From Octopus vulgaris (Eukaryota), in contig OX597841.1 in the NCBI GenBank assembly GCA_951406725.2, positions 124,001 to 188,000 on the forward strand: 64,000 nt of DNA, given 5' to 3'. Positions within the stretch are counted from its first letter, which is position 1. Each line of letters starts with the position of its first letter. The notes below the pieces were generated by a model, which did no database searches, was not told the origin of the DNA, and worked only from the letters and a program-made list of their open reading frames with translations. Shown piece by piece: positions 342 through 47,027 of this stretch. Both the position numbers and the translations under genes were made by a program.

Positions 342-520
342 ATAGCAAATGGATCAAAGTATATGCCATATCAAAGGGAGCTGGTTCGAAAGTCTATAAT
401 TCATTCCTGAATATAGGACTTCCTTCAACCTGGAATGTGGACAAATGCAATGGTGCCTTTTGTCCTAACTTCTTCCGACATCCTTTCCTCGATTTCTGGA
501 ACAATCTTCCAATTGATGAG
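342..520 (+). CDS. Secreted-protein paralog A, coding exon 2 (exon 1 lies upstream of the window)
   Basis: ttttcag acceptor and GAG|gtatgt donor. Reads (Y)SKWIKVYAISKGAGSKVYNSFLNIGLPSTWNVDKCNGAFCPNFFRHPFLDFWNNLPIDE. Same length (179 nt) and phases as the paralogous exon at 43959-44137. Confidence 0.9.
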
Positions 521-684
521 GTATGTATGTTTATGCATGCACAAACGCGCGAGTGCGCAACACATTATTGTCTTCATAATCGTTATAATGATTAACCGGC
601 TTTTAGATCAATTCAATTATGTTTGTAATATATTTGATTTCTAGAATTTATTTATTAGGTTGACGAAGTAGTGTTGTAAGGAAT

Positions 685-1105
685 TTTTTTTTCCCATTTA
701 CTACCCACAAGGGGCTAAACACAGAGGGGACAAACAAGGACAGACAAACGGATTAAGTCGATTACATTGACCCCGGTGCATAACTGGTACTTAATTTACT
801 GACCCCGAAAGGATGAAAGGCAAAGTGGACCTCGGCGAAATTTGAACTCGGAACGTAACCACAGACGAAATACGTATTTCTTTATTACCCACAAGGGGCT
901 AAACACCGAGAGGACAAACAAGGACCGACATAGGTATTAAGTCGATTACATCGACCCCAGTGCGTAACTGGTACTTAATTTATCGACCCCGAAAGAATGA
1001 AAGGCAAAGTCGACCTCGGCGGAATTTGAACTCACAACGTAACGCAGACGAAATACCGCTAAGCATTTCTCCCGGCGTGCTAACGTTTCTGCCAGCTCGC
1101 CGTTG
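685..1105 (-). mobile_element. SINE family 2, tandem partial copies
   Basis: Reverse complement of ggcgagctggcagaaacgttagcacgccggg...gagttcaaattccgcc (B-box-like). Same family as 5770-6725. Confidence 0.75.
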
Positions 1106-2719
1106 TAAAGAATCTTATCTGCGGCAAACCGCAGTAATAAGAATGTTTATCATGAACGAAAGACTCTCCCTTCTTGGAGAGATTGAAAAAGATAGATAGA
1201 TAAATAGACAGACAGATAGATAGATAGATAGATAGATAGATAGATAGATAGATAGATAGATAGATAGATAGATAGGTAGATATGGTTTTTGTATTTGGTT
1301 ATTCTTTATGTGAATTTGTGTGTTAAAGCACAGTTTATTGTATCTGGGGAGAGTCATTCTCTTTTTAGTGCCTTATTAGTTAACACACGCACCGGTTCGA
1401 TTTCCACTCATTTACTTTTTTTTTCTAAAATTTTCGTTACGTCTTTCAAAAGTCATTGAGCCTGTCCGTTATCAGGGCTGCGTTCTTTCTGCTTGTTTGT
1501 GCGCATGTGCGTGCGTTAGTGTGCATGTGTATACACATACGTATGTATATATGCATCCATGTATGTATGTGTGTATCCATATATGTGTATGCATATATAT
1601 ATACATATATGTGTGTGTATGCATGTGTGTACGTTTGTATGAATATATGCATGTGTGTACGTTTGTATTTATGTATGTATGTATGTATGTCAGGTCACTT
1701 TCGAGTGCTACTGGTAACATGTAACCCATTACAACCTGTTGCATTGTCGGGCCGTCTGCGACTAAACCGGCAACCCCACCAAGCTTGCTTGGTGAGGAGC
1801 GTGTTTATTCGACACACTGCGGGATGAAAAACAAAACCCGTGAAAGGGCGGAGGAACTCTTGAGAGTCAATGGCCATCGAATAAATGTATTAAGGATGTA
1901 TCATGCGCGGGGACATAGAAATAATCGGACTGAGTACCCGATCACGCGGTTAAACCATTGGGAATGAAGGACTTCTAGCCTTTGTTAAAGCATCCTTCTA
2001 GGAGAAGGTTGCACAGGTAACTGGGATAACTCCGATATAAAACCTGCTGCTCAGTGGTTACCGATGATGTTGACTTGTTCTTCTTTTCGGATTATGGCTG
2101 CTGTTGCTTAGTGAGTGGGATTGACTCAGTGCAGAGCCCTTCCTCACTTAATAAAAAATCTTCTTGCACAGGCATTGCACGATAACAACATTGATTAAGC
2201 TTCGTGGAATGGGCATACTCGATAACAAGGGGGCAGCCACCATGTATATATGTATGCATATTCATTAGTTTGTGTGTGTGTTTGTTTGTCTGTGTATGTG
2301 CTTGTGGGATGGGGTGTATCTGCATGTAAAGGAGATAAAAACGAATGTATTATTTGGGTATTGCAGAAAATTATTAATACATTGTGTCATACAACTCGGC
2401 AAGCAATAACACGAGATCTTAAGTAATACTATGAAATAACAAGTTTACATAACACTTCCAGTTCTTGAGGTCATACTGTATTGAAGGTTAAGTGATATAT
2501 ACCAGATAGTATCATGGTAGCATATGAGACTTTTAAGTGAAGTGTAATTAATTATATTATATGATTCATTTTGAAATAGGAAGATACGTGAAATCAGCAA
2601 ATACAATCATTCATCAACAGATGCTTGCGTAGTATACTTAAAATTAGATGATCCGAACACATAAGCAATATGGAGCTATGGCAAAGAACAAATCAAGTTT
2701 CGATTAGGGAGCAAATATT

Positions 2720-2860
2720 TAAGAAAAAGTAGAAGTGGATTCGTAGCACAATTATAAAAGACACACCAAATATAGCGAAAAGTGCTTTACAGTGTAATCC
2801 GGCTGGATATAGAAAGTATGGTAGGCCTAAGAACTCATGGCGTAGATCAACAGAAGGAAC
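2720..2860 (+). mobile_element. RTE-like LINE 3' fragment
   Basis: Translates WIRSTIIKDTPNIAKSALQCNPAGYRKYGRPKNSWRRS, resembling the RTE-clade C-terminal GRP..W motif. Confidence 0.55.
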
Positions 2861-3229
2861 TAGAGAAAGGGGGACATTCATAGAAGAGTATAAGTACAGA
2901 AGTGAAAAATTATGCGACATGGAATTCAACTCTAAGTGGCCTATACTCCGCGTTGGAGGGTTAAAGGCAGGAAAAAAAAAGATACGTATGGAGCGAGTGA
3001 CCAATCAAAGTCATTAATTTCGCATGTTAAACAGATTAATTTCGGTCAAGAGAATTACGAAGTAAAAATGAGAGTGGACATTAAGCTAACAGTGAAGGAA
3101 ATACATATTGAATTACCTCAATCTATTTAACTTGATCCATTTATTTTTATTATGTGTGTATGTGCGTGCGTGCGTGGTTGTAAGCGTATGTGGTTGTATG
3201 TGTGTGCTACATGATCATTTATTTTACAG

Positions 3230-45750: not shown

Positions 45751-45914
45751 GTGAAACTGGTCATTTATAAAAACCAAACAGCTGTGGTGACTTTGATTTT
45801 TGATGGACGAAATTCAACAATGGACAACTGGTTCCTTCATAAGAACTTGAAAAGTTCTCCATGGAATGACCTATCTTCAACTCCAATTTTTTTCGGACAA
45901 GGAGTAGCAAGTAG
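45751..45914 (+). CDS. Paralog B, coding exon 3
   Basis: cttttcag acceptor and AG|gtatgt donor. Reads VKLVIYKNQTAVVTLIFDGRNSTMDNWFLHKNLKSSPWNDLSSTPIFFGQGVAS. Confidence 0.9.
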
Positions 45915-46474
45915 GTATGTTATAAATATTTTTTCTGTTTCACTATGTGGAGACGTATTGTACTATTGAGCTAAAAGCACTTTTCTTCTGCTACTAATAC
46001 AAATCTGTTTTTTAAACTCTATATATTTATTCACGATATTTTCTTGATCTCGTTGTGAATAAAACTTCAGTCTGACAAAAGGATTCTATAGACGGCCGTT
46101 GAAGCTGTCAATGCAGATTCTAATAGAGTGGTATAGACGTCTATATATCATACCTAACGTAGACACACTCCCGATAAGCCAGTTACTGCAATATTTGCCC
46201 TGAGACAACTTCTTTTTCTCTCGTTGTCCGCTGCTGGAACGAATTTTATTATTCTAAACAAAGCAAATACATAGGAGATGTTTCCTCAGAGATTATACTA
46301 CGAAAGTAACTAGTTTATACACAGTGTGTCTATATTTTAAATATGATACACAAATGGCTATTTTAATTAAATACAGACTAATTCAAATGTTTGCATGGAA
46401 CACAATGTTATATTTATTAAATGCTTATATTTTCTCATTCTGAAACCTAAACAAGTATTTTTCCAACTCTGCAG

Positions 46475-46632
46475 TGCATATCGATTCAGTATATCGAATG
46501 AGGGTAATTGTGAAACGTCTAGTGGCTGGCTACAAATAATTGAATTTGAACTACACTGTACATATGCGCAACTGGTTCGTTTTCCTGCAATTCAATATTC
46601 TGATGCAAGCTCGAGAGTCATCTGGTACGACG
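46475..46632 (+). CDS. Paralog B, coding exon 4
   Basis: ctctgcag acceptor and G|gtaagt donor. Reads AYRFSISNEGNCETSSGWLQIIEFELHCTYAQLVRFPAIQYSDASSRVIWYD. Confidence 0.88.
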
Positions 46633-46977
46633 GTAAGTGATGTTTTCAATTTGTGAGTTTGTGTATGTCTCTTTGTCGCTCTCTCCCTTCTCTCTCTCTC
46701 TCTCTCTCTCTCTCTCTCTCTCTCTGTCTCTCTCTCTCTGTTAATGTGAGTAGTAATTGCAGAAGTTATCTTTGTACTTATTGTTCAGCAGCCAATCAGC
46801 CTTGATTCAACTAATTTACGATCAAAGGCGTTCTGACCGTGACCGACCCGTATGTTTCCCATTACACTTTATGGAGATTTGGCTGCCATTTCTATTAATA
46901 CGAGCGACCGCGTAAGAAGACTTTCCACGATTTATTTCAATTCCTTTGGTTATTGATGTTGTTATTGTTACTTGCAG

Positions 46978-47027
46978 GTTTTGGAATAGCAGACTCCATG
47001 GCCATATTCATCAGCCTGAAGCCGTAG
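46978..47027 (+). CDS. Paralog B, terminal coding exon 5
   Basis: cttgcag acceptor. Reads GFGIADSMAIFISLKP-stop. The spliced CDS is 298+179+164+158+50 = 849 nt with no internal stop. Confidence 0.88.

What the first reader, a model, noticed from the sequence alone, without database searches (positions are those of the whole stretch)
342..47027. Unnamed tandem family of secreted PAN-like proteins, invisible to the ORF track
Seen: two paralogs about 43.6 kb apart with identical exon phases. Copy B splices to about 282 aa with a signal peptide, a Cys-reduced PAN/Apple-like module, several N-glycosylation sequons (NAS, NET, NQT, NST) and a ~180-aa C-terminal domain (W..Y, FRHP.LD.W, FDGRN...WF, SPWNDL, GNC....GW, ADSMAIFI). 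I cannot assign that domain to a named family. Inference: a lineage-expanded secreted lectin-, immune- or gland-type cluster that probably extends beyond the window.
Basis: partly seen in the sequence, partly recalled or inferred. Interest (0 to 1): 0.7.

Follow-up and report, generated by a model that had tools for sequence, protein, structure and literature searches.

The report
Octopus headless fibrinogen-like secreted protein array
Two octopus genes of a tandem family (one shown spliced in transcript contigs) encode predicted secreted proteins that join a PAN module to a widespread but unnamed domain, likely a stripped-down relative of the fibrinogen domain, whose fast-changing part likely recognises varied targets such as microbial or matrix surfaces.

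Summary
Copy B has five exons and encodes 282 aa; all four junctions appear in public transcript contigs. Copy A is an intact paralog (58% identical), with exon 1 outside the window. Both belong to an octopod expansion already in databases as 'uncharacterized' genes, with 11-14 records on one contig per Octopus species. The N-terminal module has a PAN fold (Z 9.0) with only two cysteines. The 180-aa C-terminal domain has no Pfam or NCBIfam name but is not lineage-specific: 1,110 representatives, from Myxococcota and corals to amphioxus. In coral and bacterial relatives it directly follows the fibrinogen 'YCDxxxxGGGW' head, whose tryptophan aligns with the domain's first tryptophan. Its confident model matches fibrinogen/intelectin domains end to end, but weakly (Z 4-5, tied with TLDc). 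Best reading: a headless, divergent fibrinogen-related domain. Residues 211-277 are hypervariable (38% against 68-69% identity among paralogs), which suggests a repertoire of binding proteins. Ligand, tissue and positive selection are not shown.

The parts
342..520 (+). Copy A exon 2 (start of the C-terminal domain); exon 1 lies upstream of the window
   Evidence: 100% identical to O. vulgaris model P0028, which carries a signal+PAN exon before it
3230..3393 (+). Copy A exon 3
   Evidence: AG/GT, 164 nt as in B; skipped by the public model P0028
4760..4920 (+). Copy A exon 4 (variable region, conserved Cys pair and GW)
5225..5280 (+). Copy A exon 5, coding part with stop
   Evidence: AATAAA at 5380 and 5527
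37962..38259 (+). Copy B exon 1, coding part: predicted signal peptide and two-cysteine PAN module (alternative in-frame ATG at 37929)
   Evidence: junction to exon 2 seen as loose ends
43959..44137 (+). Copy B exon 2: first strand of the C-terminal domain, whose Trp aligns with the Trp of the fibrinogen GGGW motif in a coral relative
45751..45914 (+). Copy B exon 3: conserved core (FDG, WF, SPWxD); its last 15 codons start the variable region
46475..46632 (+). Copy B exon 4: hypervariable region around two invariant cysteines; predicted binding surface
46978..47027 (+). Copy B exon 5, coding part: C-terminal strand and stop
   Evidence: AATAAA at 47248

Best explanation
These are two intact members of an octopod-expanded tandem gene family encoding predicted secreted glycoproteins in which a PAN module is fused to a domain likely derived from the fibrinogen-related domain (FReD) by loss of its N-terminal head, and which likely act as non-enzymatic binding (recognition) proteins with paralog-specific targets. 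Shown: gene structure, splicing of copy B, family size, PAN fold by model, wide distribution of the domain, its attachment to the fibrinogen head in coral and bacterial relatives, and concentration of variation in residues 211-277. Inferred: secretion (hydrophobic N-terminus, no SignalP run); common descent with FReD (about 0.8); that residues 211-277 correspond to the ligand-binding P subdomain of ficolins and tachylectins and set specificity; that the targets are glycans or proteins on microbes or extracellular matrix (binding role about 0.65, immune role in particular about 0.4).
For: Splicing. Family: 47 of 48 hits are named Octopus or Argonauta; 14, 11 and 13 records share one contig length in O. 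sinensis, O. bimaculoides and O. vulgaris; octopod rows form one group, SH-aLRT 99, quick tree. PAN: Z 9.0, rmsd 2.6, 76 aligned to the HGF N domain; Z 8.6 to TgMIC4-A5. FReD link: 21 of 248 near-complete domain copies among the stored proteins have the YCDxxxxGGGW head directly in front (several are near-duplicates); these heads pass NF040941 and match angiopoietin, ficolin and tenascin FReD N-termini at E 3e-7 to 1e-3; P0001 matches coral P0242 at 30% over 191 columns, E 6e-24, W114 on the GGGW Trp. The domain model (pLDDT 89.7) aligns over its whole length with Angptl3 (Z 5.1, rmsd 4.5, 137 aligned), intelectin-1 (Z 4.6, rmsd 4.6, 143) and ficolins (Z 4.4); all 50 rows are FReD/intelectin or TLDc-type, and the start register agrees within one residue with the sequence register. 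Context: in relatives the domain sits with C-lectin, F5/8, SUEL, TSP1, EGF, ZP and Sushi domains. Variation: mean paralog identity 38% in 211-277 against 68-69% in flanking parts; 5 of 6 differences between B and its O. sinensis ortholog fall in exon 4 (52 of 282 codons, p=0.001).
Against: The structural match is weak (Z under 8, rmsd 4-5 A, no Foldseek hit at E<=0.001) and TLDc domains score the same or slightly higher (Z 5.5, rmsd 3.7, 115 aligned). No sequence match of the domain itself to any solved FReD; the coral relative's match ends about 20 residues after the GGGW Trp, and such heads may be mobile modules. Positive selection is not shown: pN/pS in the variable segment of A versus B is 0.81 (95% interval 0.55-1.29), which relaxed constraint also gives. 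No ligand, tissue or induction data. Copy B lacks some family-wide residues in the variable region (for example the Asp of CxxDxGW).
Confidence: 0.6

Rival explanations
1. Same proteins, but structural or adhesive components of a secreted matrix (skin, sucker cuticle, egg cement, mucus) rather than recognition molecules; variation reflects relaxed constraint.
For: Relatives carry ZP, TSP1, EGF and VWD domains. A cluster named 'Skeletal organic matrix protein 5' scored 0.89 by features (a lead only); a passage of 10.1101/594242 reports fibrinogen-related subdomains in sponge homologs of that protein. A-versus-B dN/dS is 0.60.
Against: No repeats or low-complexity tracts in A or B; variation is confined to one segment while the rest stays near 68-69%; exon 4 is less alike between A and B (61%) than the flanking intron ends (78%) (shuffled controls 45-64% with many gaps).
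Confidence: 0.2
2. The C-terminal domain is an independent fold, or a TLDc relative, that only shares a sheet core with FReD; the fibrinogen head in corals and Myxococcota is a separately fused module.
For: TLDc domains are the top rows (Z 5.0-5.5); no profile match of the domain to FReD sequences in the PDB.
Against: The head runs without a linker into the first strand of the domain in both corals and bacteria; FReDs align more residues (121-145 against 115-122) and over both termini; TLDc proteins are intracellular (recalled), these are predicted secreted with invariant cysteines.
Confidence: 0.15
3. A salivary or venom-gland family, or a gamete-recognition family, diversifying against prey or mates.
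For: Tandem expansion with local fast change fits either; leech anti-platelet PAN proteins are among the fold matches (Z 6.6).
Against: No tissue evidence for it in any call; B is found in contigs of 4 of 4 runs from four studies at low contig depth, which cannot rank expression.
Confidence: 0.12

Closest known systems
Fibrinogen-related domain proteins (FReDs: ficolins, tachylectin-5, angiopoietins; molluscan single-domain FReDs)
   Same: Secreted architecture with a C-terminal globe; model aligns from the GGGW strand to the terminal strand; relatives keep the FReD head; molluscan FReDs are also expanded and bind glycans and bacteria (passage of PMC8878817); PAN occurs with some molluscan FReDs (passages of PMC7588048).
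   Different: No head (A subdomain), no coiled coil, collagen or IgSF stalk, no Pfam match, only Z 4-5 similarity; the part equivalent to the P subdomain is unrelated in sequence.
Intelectins / X-type lectins
   Same: Precedent for a fibrinogen-like core carrying a different binding region (recalled); Z 4.6, 143 residues aligned.
   Different: Intelectin spans residues 76-313 over the 180 residues of this domain, so its large insert is absent; no sequence match; calcium sites not tested.
PAN/apple module (HGF N domain, TgMIC4 apple, SML-2)
   Same: Fold, Z 7.6-9.0.
   Different: Two cysteines in the module instead of four to six; below Pfam cut-off (14.5 against 21.1 bits).
O. sinensis LOC118768580 and neighbours; coral PAN-EGF-head-domain proteins (e.g. 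XP_066028564)
   Same: Ortholog of B, 97.9% identical over 282 aa; coral proteins show the fuller architecture.
   Different: Names returned are 'uncharacterized', 'hypothetical' or automatic labels such as 'Apple domain-containing'; none states a tested function.
TLDc domain (NCOA7, OXR1/2)
   Same: Shared core, Z 5.0-5.5.
   Different: Fewer residues aligned; intracellular V-ATPase regulators (recalled; titles); no sequence link found.

Membership tests
FReD (Pfam Fibrinogen_C) | N-terminal head with C...YCDxxxxGGGW (A subdomain) | tested here: not met
   Absent from A, B and P0001, where PAN runs straight into the Trp strand; present in 21 of 248 relative domain copies
FReD (Pfam Fibrinogen_C) | Profile match above cut-off | tested here: not met
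   No Pfam or NCBIfam family on P0001; 1 of 96 alignment members hits PF00147, through its head
FReD (Pfam Fibrinogen_C) | B-subdomain sheet with first and last strands in register | tested here: inconclusive
   Whole-length alignment, Z 3.9-5.1, rmsd 4.1-5.3, register consistent, but below Z 8 and tied with TLDc
FReD (Pfam Fibrinogen_C) | P-subdomain calcium site and acetyl-group pocket (recalled feature) | not testable with these tools
   Residue-level superposition and ligand data are not returned; invariant Cys237 and Cys253 and a common Asp240 lie in the candidate region
FREP (IgSF + FReD) | One or two IgSF domains before the fibrinogen domain | tested here: not met
   The 282-aa protein is fully accounted for by signal, PAN and the C-terminal domain
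PAN/apple | Apple fold | tested here: met
   Z 9.0, rmsd 2.6, 76 aligned, residues 34-112 (predicted model)
PAN/apple | Four to six core cysteines | tested here: not met
   Only Cys54 and Cys75 of B lie in the module; the wider family consensus has four
Intelectin | Intelectin-specific carbohydrate domain with calcium ligands | tested here: inconclusive
   Z 4.6, rmsd 4.6; no sequence match
TLDc | TLDc fold and profile | tested here: inconclusive
   Z 5.0-5.5; no family found on P0001
Secreted protein | Cleavable signal peptide, no membrane anchor | not testable with these tools
   No SignalP here; hydrophobic stretch at residues 3-15 of B (window 2.7), modelled as a low-confidence helix; the other hydrophobic peak is the terminal strand

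The most novel reading that the evidence does not exclude
The domain is an unnamed third branch of the fibrinogen-like superfamily, beside canonical FReDs and intelectins, shared by Myxococcota and marine invertebrates, and octopods have turned it into a tandem, diversifying repertoire of secreted immune recognition proteins with specificity set by one hypervariable exon; the fold may also link FReD and TLDc domains.
Probability: 0.3. Interest if true: 0.75.

Novelty: new variant of a known kind. Interest (0 to 1): 0.47.

Why it matters
It gives a testable identity to a domain with over a thousand unnamed representatives across bacteria and invertebrates, and points to a candidate diversified recognition family in octopus. 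The genes themselves are already in databases as uncharacterized loci, so the new part is the domain's ancestry and the hypervariable exon, not the existence of the genes.

Tried and rejected
No genome is held for the window, so paralogs were counted from protein records. PDB sequence searches with exon 1, P0001 and the 96-row profile gave no match for the C-terminal domain. Foldseek gave nothing at E<=0.001 in the PDB or the viral library. A two-copy complex prediction returned no verdict (score 0.03). No run holding the stretch was on record as RNA; the laid contigs settled splicing instead. Ten paper searches (listings and abstract starts) showed no paper on this family or domain; the library lacks most subscription journals, and PMC4795812, tried as the octopus genome paper (id recalled), was not held. 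Passages of PMC7656900 did not mention PAN or fibrinogen. Supplements of skin-mucus and ink proteomes were searched for locus-name stems, and these two plus a salivary-gland proteome for six motifs, with no hit on a locus of this family (2 of 4 places per matching stem were shown); the skin-mucus file was cut when stored and the supplement of PMC11431876 could not be read, so this is no evidence of absence. Earlier scan findings: none. Rejected: pseudogene (open frames, spliced contigs), assembly duplicate (58% identity), octopus-specific orphan domain, third copy in the window. The careful tree did not finish; only the quick tree is reported, built from 76 rows that had a label and a near-complete domain.

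Full report
Observation. Copy B has five coding exons on the + strand (37962-38259, 43959-44137, 45751-45914, 46475-46632, 46978-47027) with canonical splice sites and an open frame of 282 aa and six N-glycosylation sequons. Copy A has exons 2-5 (342-520, 3230-3393, 4760-4920, 5225-5280) with the same phases and an open frame; 106 of 182 aligned residues match B, Nei-Gojobori dS 0.52, dN 0.31. Contigs from four public runs of four studies were laid on 43945-47350: GT..AG joins for exons 2-3 in 4 of 4 runs, 3-4 in 3 of 4, 4-5 in 4 of 4; one 1,160-nt contig carries exons 2-5 without a mismatch, and loose ends at 43959 equal the end of exon 1 in 2 of 4 runs. Tissue is not given. Profile and DNA searches find no third copy in the window.

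Family. B is 97.9% identical to O. sinensis LOC118768580 (P0001); A's exons 2 and 4 are 100% identical to an O. vulgaris model (P0028) that skips exon 3 and has a signal+PAN exon upstream, and A is 96% identical to LOC118768581 over 111 aa. Of 48 homologs, 47 are named Octopus or Argonauta. Eight Argonauta records lie on contigs of eight different lengths. In a quick tree of 76 domain rows, a group of 44 (SH-aLRT 99) holds all 38 rows labelled octopod, three later named octopod and three unnamed, and no other named animal. No squid or cuttlefish name appeared in any list, so the age of the expansion within cephalopods is open.

Anatomy. The N-terminus is hydrophobic (SignalP not available). 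Residues 34-112 of the model (pLDDT 75.5 overall) match PAN/apple domains: HGF N domain Z 9.0, rmsd 2.6, 76 aligned. Only two cysteines remain in the module, and Pfam PAN_3 is below cut-off. The C-terminal domain has no Pfam or NCBIfam name.

The domain is old and widespread. A profile of 21 octopod proteins finds 1,110 representatives at E<=0.001, 654 at 1e-10 (best 150 listed). Named ones include Myxococcota, Pocillopora, Oculina, bivalves, gastropods, a chiton, Lingula, Macrostomum, echinoderms, Ptychodera and Branchiostoma. In 73 of them scanned with Pfam, partners include PAN, EGF, TSP1, C-type lectin, F5/8, SUEL, ZP, Sushi and an adhesion-GPCR body, and the domain also occurs in tandem repeats: it behaves as a mobile extracellular module.

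Link to fibrinogen. In 21 of 248 near-complete copies among the stored proteins (corals, a Myxococcota protein and unnamed large proteins; several near-duplicates) the domain begins at the Trp of a YCDxxxxGGGW motif; five such proteins tested all pass NF040941. The coral protein P0242 (PAN-EGF-head-domain) matches angiopoietin, ficolin, tenascin and tachylectin-5A FReDs over residues 150-223 and matches P0001 at 30% over 191 columns, E 6e-24, with W114 on the GGGW Trp. The domain alone, folded with 96 sequences, is confident (pLDDT 89.7, pTM 0.86). Among 48,161 representatives only 3 reach Z 5 and none Z 8. The top rows are TLDc domains (Z 5.0-5.5, 115-122 aligned) and FReD/intelectin domains (Z up to 5.1, 121-145 aligned), and all 50 rows of the second look belong to these groups. 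The FReD alignments start where the sequence match predicts: P0242's W195 maps to about position 49 of ANGPTL2 (6y41) and 43 of Ang2 (4jzc), and the model's W4 to about 48 and 44 (assuming no gaps and like numbering). Structure alone does not decide between FReD and TLDc; context does favour FReD. I therefore call it a likely headless FReD derivative (about 0.8), not a member of Pfam Fibrinogen_C.

How it likely works. By knowledge of ficolins and tachylectins (recalled), the part of a FReD between the central sheet and the last strand is the ligand-binding P subdomain. The matching stretch here, residues 211-277, keeps two invariant cysteines, GW, Pro and Tyr across 96 sequences but is the most variable part among octopod paralogs: mean identity 38% against 69%, 68% and 68% in the parts around it, and 56% in PAN. 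Five of the six differences between B and its O. sinensis ortholog fall in exon 4 (p=0.001), and contigs of run X11 show 4 replacement and 1 silent change among the 5 listed in exon 4, against 2 silent of 2 listed in exons 2-3 and 1 replacement in exon 5. Between A and B, exon 4 is 61% identical in DNA while neighbouring intron ends are 78% (lenient gapped alignment, shuffles 45-64%). Against this, pN/pS in the segment is 0.81 (0.55-1.29), so positive selection is not shown. The most likely mechanism is a secreted binding protein with a constant scaffold and a paralog-specific surface, the array supplying a range of specificities. Molluscan FReDs are expanded, bind glycans and agglutinate bacteria (passage of PMC8878817), and PAN occurs with FReDs in Biomphalaria and Lottia (passages of PMC7588048), which makes an immune role the leading guess (about 0.4), with matrix/adhesive and gland or gamete roles as rivals. 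A feature-search lead to coral skeletal protein USOMP-5 (score 0.89; passage of 10.1101/594242) was not tested by alignment.

Novelty. The genes are known as uncharacterized loci. I found no paper on the family or the domain in ten searches; unseen or cut proteome supplements and papers outside the library may bear on tissue and prior description. Verdict: real, expressed (copy B), a new variant of the fibrinogen-like kind with an untested function; interest 0.47.

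Noticed in passing
window 13176-16084 (+): Long C2H2 zinc-finger array between the two copies: one 492-aa open frame (Pfam zf-H2C2_2, E 5e-125) followed by frameshifted and stop-broken fingers; near-identical 84-bp units.
   Followed up: partly
window 39253-41600 (-): Broken LINE reverse-transcriptase element (RVT_1, E 1.8e-27) inside intron 1 of copy B.
   Followed up: partly
window 23373-25728 (-) and 54740-56048: Two copies of a retroelement-like region with a GIY-YIG-like motif (Penelope-like by recall; no Pfam hit), inside blocks duplicated at 90-96% (19774-28509 against 53472-63678).
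   Followed up: no
window 4603-4759, 5058-5679 against 46324-46474, 46778-47398: Intron ends and 3' UTRs of A and B are more alike (78-83%) than exon 4 (61%); could be gene conversion or conserved regulatory sequence.
   Followed up: partly
window 45838-45879, runs X2 and X4: Contigs that leave copy B at 45879 with other coding-like letters suggest a further expressed paralog in the same runs.
   Followed up: no
P0083, P0091, P0096, P0098: Large Myxococcota or unnamed proteins end in two or three tandem head+domain units; direction of transfer between bacteria and animals is untested.
   Followed up: partly
P0028 and other O. vulgaris models: Public O. vulgaris models of this array are often mis-spliced or chimeric; P0028 skips exon 3 of copy A and uses window 4327-4368 instead.
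   Followed up: partly
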